Of a DNA stretch of 64,000 nt, positions 423 through 30,580 are shown piece after piece. The notes under the pieces were generated by a model that was given only the letters and a program-made list of their open reading frames with translations, did not search any database and was not told the origin of the DNA. The stretch lies in contig NW_024704742.1 of assembly GCF_018977255.1 (NCBI RefSeq), positions 87,918,001 to 87,982,000 of the forward strand. Reading direction: 5' to 3'. Every line of letters starts with the position of its first letter. The stretch's first letter is position 1. The DNA is from Callorhinchus milii. Its lineage: Eukaryota. The position numbers and the translations under genes are program-made.

Positions 423-527
423 CTTATCTTTGAAATCCACATGGTTCTCCAGTATAGCTCTCTGGTACGTGGCTGTCCCGATATAGTCCTGCAGCGTGTT
501 CTGTTGTTGTGATAAACAGCCATGAAA
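423..527 (-). CDS. carm1l: CARM1-like (PRMT4 paralogue), exon equivalent to CARM1 exon 4; start of the SAM-binding core
   Basis: Acceptor ctttttctcttag| and donor |gtgagt, 105 bp, phase 0/0. Translates [35 protein letters not shown] versus recalled CARM1 [35 protein letters not shown]. Not in the ORF track in this frame. Confidence 0.93.
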
Positions 528-1695: not shown

Positions 1696-2594
1696 GTTGG
1701 TGAAAGGGTGGAACTTGCTTCAGGAAGCTGCAGATGAGGCAAAAAGTATCAATGTATTCAAGAGAAAACTTTATGCATACTTGAGGGAGAGGGTATAGCA
1801 GGGGTGGGAGCTCTCTTGTAGTATAAACCCCAGCATGAACGAGTTGGACTGAACAGTCTGCTTCCGTGCTGTATCACTATGTAACTCTTTGTAAGATGGT
1901 AAATAGGACGTAGAAAATAAACCCAGAATAGTTGCACATAAGCCAAGACAGTATGACCAGAATGTGCAGGTTCAGGGGTTGTTAAACGTAATCTTTGGGA
2001 TAGATACCACCAGGGAGTGTTCCTTTACACAGGGGAGTAACCAACAGCTGGTACAGGATATCAGGAATGGTGGTAGAAAGCAGGAATTTGGGAGTTGGTA
2101 CAGTGGGTGTCCTATAAGAGTAGGAATCCCTTCCCTATCTTACCAGTAGACACATTATTAACAAAGCTCTTTCAAAAAAATTACTACTCCTTATTAAAAA
2201 AAACAAAGCTCAGGGTTGAACTGAGCCGTACAGACCTGGGACAGAGCTTCTTCTTCTGAACCCACTCCATCCTTCCTGGCCTGCTTCGTGTTCCCTGCCC
2301 CCTCCACTCCACCGTCAGTGGGTAGGCTTTCAGTCACTTTGCCCCTGCAACTTCCTTCCACCTGATCTCCCACTTTGCTCGAACTCCCACTCCGTCTCTG
2401 TGAAGCACTTTGAGTCATTCTTCTGGGTGAAAGGCTCTGCACAAGTGCAGGTTGCAGATCTTGTCATTTGTGTTAAGCTTGTGTTACATGGTTACAGCCG
2501 GTAACACTGGCACAGTATTGGGTTCTAACACTGGCACTGTCTACCCAGCAGCTGTTCCTCTGGCCATATGGTCGTCTGACTGTCTGTCTCTTAC

Positions 2595-7100: not shown

Positions 7101-7463
7101 GGAGTCCTGCAGCCTAATGGTTAGAGCACTTAGGACAAGCAAGCGGACCTGGGTTTAATTCCCAGCAGGGCGAAATGCTAGAGAAGTCTCCTTACTCCAC
7201 ACACCTCTGTTCACCTAGCAGCGAGTAGAAACCCGGTTGTTAGTTGATTTGCAGATTGCTTTTCCGGGGGTAATAATAAAAATAAAAAATGAATAATAAA
7301 TTGGTCACTCAATCCACAACTGTTTGTGGGACACTGTGCTGTGCGAGTTTCGCCCACAAAATATACAGTCAATTCACTTTTCAGTATATTCTGTGAAGAG
7401 CTTTGAGACATCTCAATGACGTGATAAGGCACGATATCAAATGCAAGGATTATTATTATTATT
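7101..7463 (+). mobile_element. tRNA-headed SINE (family A), full length
   Basis: ggagtcctgcagcctaatggttagagc head, body ccttactccacacacctctgtt, tail ...aatgcaaggattattattattatt. Confidence 0.85.
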
Positions 7464-9570
7464 GAGGCGGGATTGTGGCTAAAGGAGAAGCCAGGCAGCA
7501 GATCGATGTTGGAGCGAGCCACGTCCCGGATACCTGCAGGATTTAAGTTTTTTGGGACTTGCTCATGGCATTGTTGAGAAATCGCTGATGAGGTTCCCAG
7601 CGACCGGAAAGACGAGGAGCAATAGAGGGCAGACAGACTGGCGCATCTGTAAGCCAGTCTGCTGTATGTTTATTGTTAAACAGTGATTCCCAGGCGAAGC
7701 ACTTGTTTAATTTATTGCCGCTTTCTGACAAGAGTAGATAAGATGCACTGAATATATTGCTCCTCAGAGCACCCGGACGGCAGCGATTACACTTAAGAAT
7801 TGTAGGGGATATTGGGCCGTGCTCCCCGCTGTTTAACTGATGAATGCGCAGTAAAGCAGCGGTCACAGGCCCAGATAAATGGATTCCATATGTTTCTCCT
7901 CTATGACCCCAGGTCTCCCAATGCCTGCTGGTAAATGTCAGCGTCCTGTACCCAGAGCCCGTGCCCGAGTCACTGCCTGACTTTACCACAAATCAATAGC
8001 ATCAAGTCACTGTAATAATAATAATATTCCTTGCATTTAACAAGGACTTTAGTTTTTCTGTGTTTATTAATTTCATTTTTTTTAGAAATTTCGAGTTCTA
8101 TGTATGTAGTTATTATTATTGTCCAAAAATTGGACAGTTTCAGGGCTTTCAGTTACTGTAATGAGACAATTCAGACGTGCCTGCAGAGCATTCTCCTCCT
8201 CCATTACGCAGGTGTGTCTGGTGAAGTGTATGTATGTGAGAGGAGGGAGGCATTGCACAGGTGTGAGTGTGCCTCTCTTTGAGAGAGACACACGTGCGTG
8301 CGTGTGCGACTGTGTGCGTGAGTGTGAGCAGAAATACTGGAGCCCATGTCCTGTAAATGTCCATTAGCAGGATGACACCAGTGGCTTTTGGGTGGAGGCC
8401 AGGAAACCAGTGTGAAGGTGTGAACAGCTCATTGCTTGCCCATCTCACACCTGGGTAACGGGAAGATAAGACTACCCTGTGCCTGGGCTGACCTTTCTTT
8501 CTCTCACCAATGTGCTCCCCTCCTTTTTTCTTCTATTCCTCTACTTTGTTCGGTCAGCAGGGTGTCTGGCACATGCGCAAACCCATTATCATAATAATAA
8601 TAATAATTCGCCCACAAAATATACAGTCAATTCACTTTACAGCGAAGCACTTTGAGTCGTCTCGAAGATGTGATAAGGCGCTACACCAAATGCAAGGATT
8701 ATTATTATTTTATTATTATTATCATATCTAAAACCGACTGAGATTTCCACAGATGTATGCCACCAATGCATGGAAGTTACTCTGTGTCACACAAAGAGTA
8801 GTAGAAATCTGGAACTCACTCCCTCAAAAGGCTGTGGGTGCTGGATCCATTCAGATTTTCAAGATGGGTGTATAGATTTTTGTTAGGTCAGGGTATCTAG
8901 GGATATGGGCAAAGGCGGGTAAATGGAGTTGAGGTACAGGTCACACTTTGACCCATTATCCTACATGAAAGGTGCTACAGTGCAGCCTCGCTGCAATCCT
9001 TTTAGAACTAATTTGGTTATAATGTAGTCACAGAGTGGATCCCAGCAGCAAACAGCAAGTGACGTTGCTAGTGACCTGACAATCTGGAAGTTGGCCATTT
9101 TAACTTCCCTTGTTTAAAACGTGCCTGCCTGCCAGATCATCAAGGTGCCACTGATATCACTTCCTGCTTGGCACACACACCCCAAACAGGAAGAGATGTC
9201 GGCAAGGAACCAGTGACTTGCAAGATAAGCAGGAGAACCAGCCAGAGTGTAGAGTGAAAGGGATGAAACCAGCTACTGCACCTCGCTAAATGAATTGTGA
9301 CCACCACGGCATAACGGCTCCACTGGACATGGATACAGATTGTGGTTTTATTGCTCTCCAGTACTGCATCCAAGTGGCCATTATAGATGTTTAAGGTTTA
9401 ACACTGAATATCATAAAGGCCTGATATCTACAGGGCTCACTGGACAGTGATGAGGAGTAGGAGATTTCTGTACCCCAGGGCCATGACGCCTGACTGACTT
9501 ACCCTCCCTACCTCAGCTCAAATTGACTGCCGTGTTCTCTCACAAAAGACAAAATCACTACACTTTACAG

Positions 9571-10038: not shown

Positions 10039-10164
10039 CGTTGGATGACCTAAACTGTAGCAGCACGCTGCTGTAACCCACTGTGATGAGAAAAGCTTGT
10101 TTCCCTACTCGGCAGCTTTCCGTCTCCCGGCTCATGACACATTTGAACACGCACATGCCATCTC
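10039..10164 (-). CDS. carm1l: CARM1-like, exon equivalent to CARM1 exon 2 (N-terminal PH-like domain)
   Basis: Acceptor cttctgtttctttcag| and donor G|gtgagt, 126 bp, phase 1/1. DGMCVFKCVMSRETESCRVGKQAFLITVGYSSVLLQFRSSN versus CARM1 DVCVFKCSVSRETECSRVGKQSFIITLGCNSVLIQFATPN. Lies within ORF 9899..10156. Confidence 0.93.
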
Positions 10165-10795: not shown

Positions 10796-11199
10796 CAGAC
10801 GTACAGACAGAAACACACAGGCCGAGATAGATATACACATGAACACACACACAAAATCACTGCTCAAGCCTAGAAAACACCCACGTCAGCATGGGTGAAG
10901 AATTACTGTGAGCCTTTGACCTCACTGTACACTTGCCTGAGCCAGGCTGAGCTCTCTTTGTCCCTGCGGATCTGATCATTCCGACAATGATGACATCTGC
11001 CTGGTGATCTCTGTGTTAACTCATTCACAGTGTCTCCTGTTTGGCTCGGGCCTGTCTTTGCTCATCGGATAATGAAGGTGGAAATAGTTTGAGGAACGGA
11101 TAAAATCATCCCCCGAGCTGGATGCGGCCCACGGGCCACCAATTGGACCACCTTGTTCTATGGCAATTGTCAACTATTTCTCCCCATAACAACAACTCT

Positions 11200-22950: not shown

Positions 22951-22975
22951 NNNNNNNNNNNNNNNNNNNNNNNNN
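22951..22975. other. Assembly gap (25 N)
   Basis: Run of n characters. Confidence 1.
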
Positions 22976-28824: not shown

Positions 28825-30580
28825 GTAATTGGCTCAATGATTGATGCGGGAGAGGACATGAGCTGTAGAGTTCTGAATAATTTGCAGCCTGTGGAGGACA
28901 GAGCTGGGAAGTCTGGCGAGCAGAATTAGCATAGTCAAGCCTGGACATCATGAAAGTATGGCTGAGGGTCTCGGGGACCTGAGGGGAGATGTAGTGGCAG
29001 ATAGGGAAGGCAGAATGGGTCATGGCTCGGAGATGGGCTTTAAAAGACAGTTGAGGGTTCAACAAAACACAAAGGCTATGTACTGGTTTGGTGAGGTGGA
29101 GAATGGATCCATGAATAGTGATTCTGTCAGTACCTGAGGTAAGGAGACGCTGATGGGAGCTAAGCAGGAGAGCCTCTTGTCTTGTCAACATTCAACTAGA
29201 GAAATTTGGCTCTATTCCAGGACTTGACATCTGACAAAGACAACACGTCACAACAGCAGCGCTCTGGAGTCTAGGGTGGAGGCAGAAATAGAGGTGGGTG
29301 TCATCTGCATACATGTTGAAGTTAGCCTCATGCCTGCAGATGACATCACCGAGTGACAGCATGCAAATATTAAAGAGGAAAGGACTAAGGACAGAGCCCC
29401 AAGGAACACCACACATGATATAGTACAAGATACAATACAAAATTACATTTGTAAAGTGTCTTTCATGTTGGGAGGATGTTCCAAGGCATTGAACAGTCAG
29501 GAATTAGGACACGACTGGGGGCTTGGGTTCAGGGCGGGTGGCCGAAGGCATGGTTGAAAAGGAGGGTCTTGAGGTGTGCCATGAAGGAGGAAAGGGAGAG
29601 AGTGAGGTGAAGGGAATGTGAGATGGAGTTCCAGAGGGTGGGGCAGAGATGATGGTGTGAGGGCTGGAGGAGATGATGGTGTGAGGGCTGGAGGATATAA
29701 AGTGGAGACAGTTGGAAAGGTAAGAATGAAACCGGACAAAGACAGAACCATGAAGTTGGAGCTCTGTATAGAATGGTTCAATAGTGTCGAAGGCGGCAGA
29801 GAGAGTGAGAAGGACAAGGAGACAGAGAGCGCCCTGGTCCAGATGGACAGAATGTCATTTGTAACTTTGACTAAGGCTGCCTCTGCACTGTGAGCAGCAC
29901 GGAAACCCAACTGGAGGGGTTCATACTTGGAGTGGCGGGAGAGGAAAGAGCGAAGCTGAGAAGCAAAGACTCATTCCAGGAACTTGGAAAGTAAAGGAAG
30001 GTGAGAAATGGGATGGTAGTTAAGAGAACAGACATGGATCAAGGGAAAACATTTTTAGGATGGGGATGATGCGGTCAAAGGAGAAGGCGGTGGGTTTCAT
30101 TTGGGAAATAATGGAGGTGAGAGATGAGGTCAAAAGTATGGAGGGAGTGATAAGTGGAGGCCGGAAGGGAAGGTGGGCTCAGTAGAAAGGGTAGAAGCAG
30201 CAGAGGTCATCCCCTAAATTTGGGACTCCAGGAAGCATTGTTGCCTCAAATTTGGAGTTGAAGGAGAAGATAGGTGAGGAATGGAAAGGTGGGCGAAGGA
30301 GCCGGTTTGTGGTGAAGAGGAGCCTTAGCCTTCAAGATGATCTTTGAATAGAAAGTGAGGGCGGAATGGTAAGTTTTGATGGGGTCCAGCCAAATCTGGC
30401 AATGGATTTCTGCCAGATGAGTGCAGGGTCACGTACCTGTGACTTGAGAGAGTAGAGATGGCTGGTGTACCAGAGGGACTTGGACTAGTAGGAGGCACTG
30501 TGGGAGATGACAAGGATAATAAAGGGGGAGTTATGGAGGAGATTGACCGAGGAGGTAAGGATGGGTATTACAGGAGGATA
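28825..30580 (-). mobile_element. Degraded L2 ORF2 (reverse transcriptase) fragment with a nested L2 3' tail (~29430-29650)
   Basis: [40 protein letters not shown] and MSRLDYANS motifs, broken by frameshifts. Confidence 0.88.

What the first reader, a model, noticed from the sequence alone, without database searches (positions are those of the whole stretch)
423..527. CARM1 paralogue with three conserved catalytic-core residues substituted: candidate pseudo-methyltransferase
Seen in sequence: the exon reads [25 protein letters not shown]. Against recalled CARM1 (mouse numbering F153-Y154...M163...R169), Y154 reads H (CAT, 522-524), M163 reads T (ACG, 495-497) and R169 reads G (GGG, 477-479). 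Each is one nucleotide from the canonical codon. Established knowledge: Y154 belongs to the YFxxY motif that positions a catalytic glutamate, M163 corresponds to PRMT1 M48 lining the active site, and R169 binds the SAM carboxylate (R169A is the classic enzyme-dead CARM1 allele). All three visible exons keep their frame, canonical splice sites and strong conservation of the PH-like domain. Inference: either a catalytically dead, scaffold or dominant-negative PRMT4 pseudo-enzyme (CARM1 works as an oligomer), or a gene under recently relaxed selection.
Basis: partly seen in the sequence, partly recalled or inferred. Interest (0 to 1): 0.82.

Follow-up and report, generated by a model that had tools for sequence, protein, structure and literature searches.

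The report
Elephant-shark CARM1 paralogue with rebuilt cofactor pocket
An intact, otherwise very conserved second copy of the arginine-methylating enzyme CARM1 in the elephant shark has lost the arginine that holds its methyl-donor cofactor, so it is probably a non-catalytic "pseudo-enzyme", which only a biochemical assay can confirm.

Summary
The exon at 423-527 (-) reads as reported. It belongs to carm1l, the short ohnologue of CARM1; protein names and contig length point to Callorhinchus milii.

- **Gene state:** Twelve exons (residues 57-461) are intact with AG/GT borders. GxGxG, both double-E glutamates and the THW loop are kept. Exon 1 of the older model was not found in this assembly.
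- **The three flagged residues:** Y154H is not special, as 26 of 114 other carm1l proteins have His. R169G and M163T are private: of 223 other CARM1/CARM1L sequences with the motif, 222 have Arg and 1 has Lys.
- **Further private changes:** M269R and F138I.
- **Clustering:** C. milii changes 9 of 205 sites that are invariant in 15 reference proteins. All 9 lie in the cofactor-binding half (9/91 against 0/114, p=5e-4).
- **Rates:** That half evolved 2.5-13 times faster than in elasmobranchs, while the beta-barrel evolved 3-8 times slower.

This pattern fits domain-specific loss or remodelling of cofactor binding in a gene still under selection. It does not fit a decaying pseudogene or an assembly error. 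Mouse CARM1 R169A is enzyme-dead. My best reading is a catalytically crippled CARM1L with a non-catalytic role (about 0.5). No biochemistry exists, and the timing within chimaeras is unresolved.

The parts
423..527 (-). carm1l exon 4 (35 codons, phase 0 at both ends). It encodes CARM1 residues 153-187: the end of the YFxxY helix, M163, and the SAM-carboxylate site R169.
522..524 (-). Codon CAT = His at CARM1 position 154 (Tyr in canonical CARM1). His is shared with 26 of 114 other carm1l proteins.
495..497 (-). Codon ACG = Thr at CARM1 position 163 (Met or Leu elsewhere). Thr is private to this species in the sequences compared.
477..479 (-). Codon GGG = Gly at CARM1 position 169, the Arg that pairs with the cofactor carboxylate. 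Gly is private: 222 Arg and 1 Lys in 223 other sequences.
   Evidence: role from passages in PMC6917500
2595..2701 (-). carm1l exon 3: the end of the PH-like domain through ...SQYFQ (Y150, F151). It contains the private F138I change.
2236..2397 (-). In-frame 162-base cassette exon, used only in the newer protein model P0003. If included it would put 54 residues between Q152 and F153, inside the YFxxY motif. Its usage is not shown.
10039..10164 (-). carm1l exon 2: core of the CARM1 N-terminal PH-like domain (PF11531, E 1e-17 for the ORF that holds it).
10937..10979 (-). Alternative first exon of model P0003 (MIRSAGTKRAQPGS...). By my reading its donor is GC rather than GT. It is weakly supported.

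Best explanation
This is the elephant-shark orthologue of carm1l, the short vertebrate ohnologue of CARM1/PRMT4. The gene is intact and still under purifying selection. On the chimaera lineage, its S-adenosylmethionine (SAM) pocket was selectively remodelled, while the PH-like domain, the beta-barrel and the dimerisation arm stayed almost frozen.

The key change is R169G. It removes the arginine that forms the ionic bond with the cofactor carboxylate. M163T removes the methionine that buttresses the substrate guanidinium. M269R puts a charged side chain where a methionine contacts the adenosine. Y154H alters the YFxxY helix that holds E267 in place.

Inferred consequence: SAM binding and methyl transfer are lost or greatly weakened. 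The protein then works non-catalytically, as a substrate- or partner-binding scaffold and possibly as a dimer partner of canonical CARM1.

Shown: the sequence facts, orthology, the uniqueness of the substitutions, and their clustering and rate asymmetry. Inferred: loss of activity (by analogy with mouse CARM1 R169A) and any non-catalytic role.
For: - **Gene intact.** Exons for residues 57-461 of P0002 map exactly, with AG/GT borders and a stop after ...FFSSYE. Pfam finds CARM1 N-terminal (1e-27) and PRMT_C (3e-20).
- **Orthology.** The carm1l clade has support 100/100 and chondrichthyan carm1l 100/99. This protein is sister to six elasmobranch carm1l proteins.
- **Uniqueness.** R169: 176 Arg and 1 Lys in the other 177 aligned full-length proteins, and 222 Arg and 1 Lys in 223 sequences with the motif. 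M163T and M269R are seen in no other sequence.
- **Clustering.** Of 205 sites invariant in 15 reference proteins, C. milii changes 9: F138I, Y154H, M163T, R169G, Q179E, V189I, A216G, M269R, L270I.
  - All 9 lie in residues 138-287: 9/91 against 0/114, Fisher p=5e-4.
  - 4 of 16 invariant pocket residues named in papers are changed, against 5 of 189 others, p=0.0025.
  - The 15 controls have 0-7 such private changes each, and none is in the pocket.
- **Rates on a fixed tree.** SAM region: 0.121 substitutions per site in C. milii against 0.009-0.048 in elasmobranchs. Barrel: 0.015 against 0.05-0.12.
- **Function of the residues (passages read).**
  - R169 forms an ionic bond with the ligand carboxylate (PMC6917500).
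  - Carm1 R169A lacks activity in vitro and homozygotes resemble the knockout (PMC9339313, citing Kim 2010).
  - M163 and YFxxY roles (PMC4655611).
  - M269 contacts the adenosine (PMC9469100).
- **Selection and expression hints.**
  - The four listed differences to a related organism's contig in exon L009 131-223 are all synonymous third-position changes.
  - Run X8 (guessed RNA) has depth 12-31 at the four listed positions in that exon (L009 167-209). It has depth 0 at the listed intronic positions beside it (L009 36-43 and 1607-1738).
- **Not an assembly error.** Two assemblies give the same residues, and contigs of runs X1 and X2 agree.
Against: - No biochemical data exist for any carm1l. 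The R169A result is for mouse CARM1, not this protein.
- The other catalytic residues are all present: GxGxG, E215, E244, E258, E267, H415 and W416. That would be unnecessary in a dead enzyme, unless they are kept for substrate binding or folding.
- The new Arg at 269 might partly compensate for the lost Arg 169. I could not measure distances because no coordinates were available.
- The region test is partly post hoc. I set the 138 boundary after seeing F138I, and I did not recompute the test with that site moved to the other region.
- The comparison set is the top-scoring hits of two searches. It contains isoforms and close relatives, so the counts are not independent lineages.
- Table 3 was truncated. 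One mismatch in the X1 contig and five in the organism-B piece are unlocated.
- RNA status of X8 is the tool's guess, and no splice joints were recovered.
- Exon 1 of the older model is not found in this assembly, and the newest model has an odd N-terminus.
- dN/dS was not computed.
Confidence: 0.5

Rival explanations
1. The protein is still an active arginine methyltransferase with a rebuilt pocket. The cofactor carboxylate would be held by water, by Gln160, or by the new Arg at position 269. M163T and Y154H would change product or substrate specificity rather than kill the enzyme.
For: - All catalytic glutamates, the THW loop, motif I, and the ribose- and adenine-binding glutamates are kept.
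- A basic residue appears in the pocket on the same lineage that lost R169 (M269R).
- In the papers read, M163 is linked to product specificity rather than to chemistry.
- 26 other carm1l proteins also carry His154 together with other pocket changes, and they persist.
Against: - R169A alone abolishes CARM1 activity in vitro (passage in PMC9339313).
- Arg is kept in 222 of 223 other sequences, including the heavily remodelled teleost carm1l proteins. This argues that it is hard to replace.
- M269 is described as an adenosine contact, not a carboxylate contact.
Confidence: 0.25
2. The gene is on its way to becoming a pseudogene. Selection was relaxed recently, and the pocket changes are the first neutral hits.
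For: - The substitutions hit residues that an enzyme should not lose.
- Exon 1 of the older model is not found in this assembly.
- The newer model uses an alternative first exon with a GC donor and an extra cassette exon.
- No run on record as RNA holds the stretch. The tool says this blank is no evidence either way.
Against: - There are no stops or frameshifts in 12 exons, and all splice borders are intact.
- 0 of 114 invariant sites outside the SAM region are changed, against 9 of 91 inside it.
- The barrel branch is 3-8 times shorter than in elasmobranchs. Neutral drift would hit both halves.
- The four listed exon differences to a related organism are all synonymous.
Confidence: 0.12
3. 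The odd codons are assembly errors, or rare alleles of the sequenced individual.
For: Each change is a single base. Only contigs, not raw reads, could be laid.
Against: - The older-assembly protein model P0002 has identical residues in all 12 mapped exons.
- The X1 contig spans the exon with 1 mismatch in 996 bases. The X2 contig spans the M269R exon, and its single mismatch is matched by the intronic difference listed for X2 at L009 1722.
- Nine separate unusual changes spread over three exons are not what sequencing errors look like.
Confidence: 0.03

Closest known systems
Canonical CARM1/PRMT4 (e.g. PDB 3b3f, 5dx0 and 5ih3 chains; C. milii CARM1 = P0117, on contig C29)
   Same: - PH-like N-terminal domain, Rossmann SAM domain, beta-barrel with dimerisation arm, and the same exon borders.
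- 76% identity in the SAM region and 80% in the barrel to the species' own CARM1.
- Double-E loop, THW loop and GxGxG are present.
   Different: - It lacks the long C-terminal tail and ends at ...NPFFSSYE.
- Y154H, Y156C, M163T, R169G, G171A and M269R.
- It belongs to a separate clade with 100/100 support.
carm1l of elasmobranchs and bony vertebrates (P0122 Heptranchias, P0123 Heterodontus, P0006 Pristis, P0126 Latimeria and others)
   Same: - Orthologues of about 457-461 residues.
- 90% identity to Heptranchias over the 401 core columns.
- Shared family traits C156 and A171.
   Different: Those proteins keep the full canonical pocket, F138/Y150/F151/Y154/Q160/M163/R169/.../M269/H415 (66 of 111 sequences classed as carm1l by a one-residue signature). 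The elephant-shark protein changes five of these residues.
Neoteleost carm1l (e.g. P0168, P0179, P0202, P0207)
   Same: This is a second, independent remodelling of the pocket in the same paralogue. It includes the same Y154H change.
   Different: The teleost proteins change Y150, F151, M163L, G193C, often E267D, M269L and H415R, but they all keep R169. The elephant shark keeps those residues and loses R169.
Trypanosoma brucei PRMT1 prozyme (PRO), a catalytically dead PRMT paralogue (bioRxiv 10.1101/776112; abstract and passages read)
   Same: It is a PRMT paralogue that lacks conserved AdoMet-binding residues but keeps dimerisation residues. The equivalents of R169 and M269 (Arg37 and Met137 of the active subunit) are listed there as AdoHcy contacts.
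   Different: - PRO is only 27% identical to its enzyme partner, lacks a helix of the Rossmann fold, and is an obligate partner of an unstable enzyme.
- Here the paralogues are about 76-80% identical.
- The canonical CARM1 of the species shows no private change at invariant sites (0).
- No complex has been shown.
Mouse Carm1 R169A, the engineered enzyme-dead allele
   Same: It loses the same arginine side chain. It is reported to lack activity in vitro and to resemble the knockout (passage in PMC9339313).
   Different: It is an engineered Ala in canonical CARM1. Here the change is a natural Gly in the paralogue, accompanied by eight other changes in the SAM domain.

Membership tests
CARM1/PRMT4 family (carm1l subfamily) | CARM1-type N-terminal PH-like domain | tested here: met
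   PF11531, E 1e-27, residues 11-121 of P0002. The exon 2 ORF alone gives 1e-17.
CARM1/PRMT4 family (carm1l subfamily) | PRMT beta-barrel / oligomerisation subdomain | tested here: met
   PF22528, E 3.3e-20. The barrel is 94% identical to Heptranchias carm1l.
CARM1/PRMT4 family (carm1l subfamily) | Placement inside the carm1l clade, apart from canonical CARM1 | tested here: met
   ML tree of 32 rows: carm1l 100/100 and chondrichthyan carm1l 100/99. FastTree of 179 rows: a clade of 115 with support 1.0.
Active type I PRMT | Motif I GxGxG and the ribose/adenine-binding glutamates (E215, E244) | tested here: met
   ILDVGCGSG, AVEGS and KIEE are present.
Active type I PRMT | Double-E loop (E258, E267) and THW loop (H415, W416) | tested here: met
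   SEPMGYLLFHERRIES and LTHWYQ are present.
Active type I PRMT | Arginine that pairs with the SAM carboxylate (CARM1 R169) | tested here: not met
   Gly, codon GGG. Others: 222 Arg and 1 Lys of 223.
Active type I PRMT | YFxxY motif (Y150, F151, Y154) | tested here: not met
   The motif reads YFQFH, with His at 154. The same His occurs in 26 of 114 other carm1l proteins.
Active type I PRMT | Conserved active-site methionines (CARM1 M163 and M269) | tested here: not met
   Thr and Arg here. Elsewhere Met, Leu or rarely another residue, never Thr or Arg.
Active type I PRMT | SAM binding and methyl transfer | not testable with these tools
   This needs recombinant protein.
Pseudo-enzyme / prozyme-type dead paralogue | Loss of cofactor-binding residues with the fold and interfaces retained | tested here: met
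   9/91 against 0/114 invariant sites changed. Branch length 0.121 in the SAM region against 0.015 in the barrel.
Pseudo-enzyme / prozyme-type dead paralogue | Purifying selection on the dead copy | tested here: inconclusive
   The frame is intact, the barrel branch is slow, and 4 of 4 listed exon differences to a relative are synonymous. No dN/dS was computed.
Pseudo-enzyme / prozyme-type dead paralogue | Complex with, and effect on, the active paralogue | not tested
   I did not run a complex prediction. A pass would rest on likeness to solved CARM1 homodimers.

The most novel reading that the evidence does not exclude
Chimaera CARM1L is a vertebrate PRMT 'prozyme'. On this reading it is a SAM-blind paralogue kept by selection because it pairs with canonical CARM1 through the conserved dimerisation arm, or competes for CARM1 substrates through its PH domain and substrate groove. 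It would thereby tune arginine methylation. Together with the independently remodelled neoteleost carm1l, this would mean the carm1l paralogue has repeatedly drifted towards a non-catalytic regulator.
Probability: 0.12. Interest if true: 0.8.

Novelty: new variant of a known kind. Interest (0 to 1): 0.55.

Why it matters
The papers I searched describe dead enzyme paralogues that regulate their live partners in trypanosomes. My searches found no such description for vertebrate arginine methyltransferases:
- 'pseudoenzyme' + 'arginine methyltransferase' + 'PRMT' gave 5 papers, and the only PRMT cases were kinetoplastid ones.
- 'carm1l' gave 10 papers (listing only). The one passage I read was a synteny gene list.
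- 'CARM1-like' gave 1 unrelated paper.

carm1l itself appears to be unstudied. A natural R169G variant in an otherwise frozen protein is a ready-made separation-of-function allele. It could show what CARM1-type proteins do without catalysis. It also gives a clear, cheap biochemical test. If the protein turns out to be active, it would show how a type I PRMT can hold SAM without the arginine that 222 of the 223 other CARM1/CARM1L sequences compared here keep.

Tried and rejected
- a 35-residue query was too short for the homologue search. I used the 54-residue ORF that holds the exon instead.
- the MAFFT run timed out. I repeated it with faster settings.
- no listed holder is on record as RNA ('no RNA holder listed').
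- I laid contigs at 80% likeness so as to include a related organism (X18). Repeats swamped the tables.
  - No splice joints could be read.
  - The related organism's state at the R169 exon was not recovered.
  - Its double-E exon differences were not listed.
- a search with the 74-residue ORF around the double-E exon gave no near-identical fragment from this or a related chimaera (best 68-72% identity). The age of M269R is therefore unknown.
- exon 1 of P0002 was not found in the genome with this query. tblastn over the window and 60 kb downstream also found nothing.
- the supplementary files of PMC6917500 held none of the residue names I searched for.
- earlier scan notes hold nothing on this locus or on carm1l.
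- 52 long ORFs of the window gave only the CARM1 N-terminal exon and a reverse-transcriptase fragment.
- **Not run:** structure prediction, fold search and complex prediction. At 76-80% identity to solved CARM1 the fold is not in doubt, no coordinates are returned for measuring distances, and a dimer 'pass' would only reflect likeness to solved homodimers.
- **Rejected:** a hidden alternative canonical copy of the exon. Only two genomic matches exist, this one and the paralogue on C29.

Full report
**Observation.**
The minus strand of window 423-527 is a 105-base exon with a ...ctcttag acceptor and a gtgagt donor. It translates to [35 protein letters not shown].

It aligns over its whole length with 21 distinct solved CARM1 chain sequences (E about 2e-12). 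26 of 35 residues are identical to [35 protein letters not shown]. The canonical paralogue of the same genome (contig C29, locus L002) has TAT, ATG and CGG there.

The residue numbers (Y154, M163, R169) agree with the residue names used in papers I read in passages.

**What the gene is.**
The exon ORF finds two protein models at 97% identity over the aligned part of the query, which also contains intron read-through. Their sources name them CARM1 or CARM1-like of Callorhinchus milii. One lies on a contig of 139,202,109 bases, the length of the window's own contig.

Model P0002 (461 aa) maps exactly, residues 57-461, onto 12 exons:
- 10039-10164, 2595-2701 and 423-527 lie in the window.
- Nine more lie beyond the window start, at about G000:C1 87917666-87917773, 87912781-87912960, 87911131-87911223, 87909106-87909183, 87908333-87908419, 87907593-87907682, 87905815-87905952, 87904228-87904314 and 87903215-87903226.

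There are no stops or frameshifts. The frame ends at ...NPFFSSYE followed by TGA. The coordinates outside the window are good to within two bases.

Pfam finds the CARM1 N-terminal domain (1e-27) and PRMT_C (3e-20).

A maximum-likelihood tree of 32 proteins separates a carm1l clade (100/100) from canonical CARM1. It places this protein as sister to six elasmobranch carm1l proteins within a chondrichthyan carm1l clade (100/99). The carm1l clade also holds coelacanth, gar, bowfin, teleost, amphibian, reptile, bird and mammal proteins. It is therefore an old vertebrate paralogue that lacks the CARM1 C-terminal tail.

My literature searches found no functional study of it:
- 'carm1l': 10 papers (listing seen). 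The one passage I read was a synteny gene list.
- 'CARM1-like': 1 unrelated paper.

**How unusual the residues are.**
I aligned the 187 proteins of 400 residues or more from the two searches, leaving out P0003. I kept the 179 with under 10% gaps in the core, so 8 were dropped. A FastTree split them into 115 carm1l (this one included) and 64 CARM1.

| CARM1 position | C. milii | Other 114 carm1l | 64 canonical CARM1 |
|---|---|---|---|
| 154 | His | Tyr 84, His 26, Phe 1, gap 3 | Tyr 64 |
| 156 | Cys | Cys 100 (carm1l norm) | Tyr 64 |
| 171 | Ala | Ala 98 (carm1l norm) | Gly 64 |
| 163 | Thr (private) | Met 89, Leu 22, Ile 1, Lys 1, gap 1 | Met 64 |
| 169 | Gly (private) | Arg 112, Lys 1, gap 1 | Arg 64 |
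| 269 | Arg (private; codon AGG) | Met 90, Leu 18, Ser 3, Lys 2, Val 1 | Met 64 |

So Y154H is a recurrent state of the paralogue, mostly in neoteleosts, and is not a private change.

**Pattern of change.**
I took 15 reference proteins: six elasmobranch carm1l, five bony-vertebrate carm1l and four canonical CARM1. 205 of the 401 core columns are invariant in them.

The elephant-shark protein differs at nine of these sites: F138I, Y154H, M163T, R169G, Q179E, V189I, A216G, M269R and L270I. All nine lie in residues 138-287, the cofactor-binding Rossmann half. That is 9 of 91 invariant sites there, against 0 of 114 in the PH-like domain and beta-barrel (Fisher p=5e-4).

Eighteen pocket or catalytic residues are named in the paper passages I read, and 16 of them are invariant in the references. 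Four of these 16 are changed, against 5 of 189 other invariant sites (p=0.0025).

Each of the 15 references, tested the same way, has 0-7 private changes. None is in the pocket, and most lie in the barrel or PH domain.

Branch lengths were estimated per region on the fixed tree, measured from the chondrichthyan carm1l node:

| Region | Elephant shark | Elasmobranchs |
|---|---|---|
| SAM region | 0.121 substitutions per site | 0.009-0.048 |
| Beta-barrel | 0.015 | 0.05-0.12 |

Identity to Heptranchias carm1l is 88.7% in the SAM region and 94.1% in the barrel. Heptranchias and Pristis are 97.3% identical in both regions.

Caveats:
- I set the boundary at 138 after seeing the list of changes.
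- The sequence set contains isoforms and close relatives.

**What the residues do (from papers, passages only).**
[quoted passage not shown] The alpha-amino group binds the Gly193 backbone, the ribose binds Glu215, and the adenine binds Glu244 and Ser272 (PMC6917500).
- Carm1 R169A lacks methyltransferase activity in vitro, and homozygous embryos resemble the knockout (PMC9339313, citing Kim et al. 2010).
- M163 buttresses the substrate guanidinium. Y150/F151/Y154 stack on the cofactor and fix E267 (PMC4655611).
- The adenosine interacts mainly with Y150, E215, E244 and M269 (PMC9469100).
- In the trypanosome PRMT1 enzyme, the equivalents Arg37 and Met137 are listed among the conserved AdoHcy contacts. 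Its dead paralogue (the prozyme) lacks AdoMet-binding residues but keeps dimerisation residues (10.1101/776112).

**Reality of the codons, and expression.**
The older-assembly model P0002 and this assembly agree in all 12 mapped exons. From the contigs laid:
- A contig of run X1 covers L009 7342-8337 (the exon is at 7423-7527) with one mismatch whose place was not listed.
- A contig of run X2 covers L009 1549-2075 (the double-E exon). Its single mismatch is matched by the intronic difference listed for X2 at L009 1722.
- Run X8, guessed to be RNA, has depth 12-31 at the four listed positions inside exon L009 131-223. It has depth 0 at the listed intronic positions beside it (L009 36-43 and 1607-1738). 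This fits a spliced transcript but does not prove one.
- A contig of a related organism (X18) covers two exons. The four differences listed inside exon L009 131-223 are all synonymous third-position changes. Five further differences in that piece were not listed.

Because I laid at 80% likeness, repeats flooded the tables. No splice joints were recovered, and the relative's state at position 169 was not recovered either.

**Interpretation.**
A decaying pseudogene should collect changes in both halves of the protein, and should in time collect stops. An assembly error should not give nine coordinated rare changes in three exons that are confirmed in a second assembly.

The data fit a gene that is still selected for what its PH-like domain, barrel and dimerisation arm do, while the constraint on cofactor binding was lost or changed. 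Because R169A alone kills mouse CARM1, the simplest reading is a catalytically dead or very weak CARM1L with a non-catalytic role (confidence about 0.5).

- **An active enzyme with a rebuilt pocket (about 0.25)** is the main rival. All catalytic glutamates and the THW loop are kept, and a new arginine sits at 269.
- **Whole-gene relaxation (about 0.12)** and **error or polymorphism (about 0.03)** are less likely.

A prozyme-like partnership with CARM1 is possible but unsupported. The species' canonical CARM1 shows no private change at invariant sites, unlike the dependent trypanosome enzyme.

**Comparison and novelty.**
By domain content and phylogeny the protein is a member of the CARM1 family and of its carm1l subfamily. 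It fails three sequence features of active type I PRMTs: the carboxylate-binding arginine, the last Tyr of YFxxY, and the two active-site methionines.

It resembles the engineered R169A allele and the trypanosome PRMT1 prozyme in the kind of loss. It differs from the prozyme in being about 76-80% identical to its active paralogue and in having no shown complex.

I rate it a new variant of a known kind. The idea of a pseudo-methyltransferase paralogue is known. A candidate in a vertebrate PRMT, in an unstudied paralogue, with domain-specific evidence, was not found in the papers I searched.

**Left open.**
- The age of the changes within chimaeras.
- dN/dS.
- The true first exon, and how often the cassette exon is used.
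- SAM binding, activity and partners.

Noticed in passing
window 2236-2397 (-): The newer protein model (P0003) includes an in-frame 162-base cassette exon with AG/GT borders and a low-complexity peptide. It would insert 54 residues between Q152 and F153, splitting the YFxxY motif. In one search this stretch did not show the very high depths of the repeat-rich bins. Whether it is used in transcripts is not known.
   Followed up: partly
window 22951-22975, and upstream of 10164: Exon 1 of the older model P0002 (residues 1-56, which align well with orthologues) is not found in the window, in the 60 kb downstream, or in the whole assembly with this query. A run of 25 N lies at 22951-22975. The newer model instead starts at 10979, with an exon whose donor reads GC.
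   Followed up: partly
proteins P0168, P0179, P0202, P0207, P0212, P0226 and about 20 more: Neoteleost carm1l proteins carry a second, independent and heavier remodelling of the pocket: Y150G/C, F151Y, Y154H, M163L, G193C, often E267D, M269L and H415R. They keep R169. The paralogue seems prone to losing canonical catalytic residues.
   Followed up: partly
proteins P0170, P0180, P0183, P0186, P0194, P0225: Six cyprinid (Sinocyclocheilus) carm1l proteins have Gln instead of His in the THW loop, with an otherwise canonical pocket.
   Followed up: no
L009 243-1570 (G000:C1 87911243-87912570): A contig of a related organism (X18, record 9) joins L009 242 directly to 1571. About 1.3 kb of this intron is therefore present here and absent there. 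The high depths in the bins covering this segment suggest repeat sequence.
   Followed up: no
window 29195-29503 (-): An ORF fragment matches reverse transcriptase (PF00078, E 3.7e-8). It is probably a decayed retroelement upstream of carm1l.
   Followed up: no
L009 7031 (window 31): Contigs of X1, X2 and X18 all read A where the assembly has C. This looks like a variant private to the assembled individual, and it is intronic.
   Followed up: no
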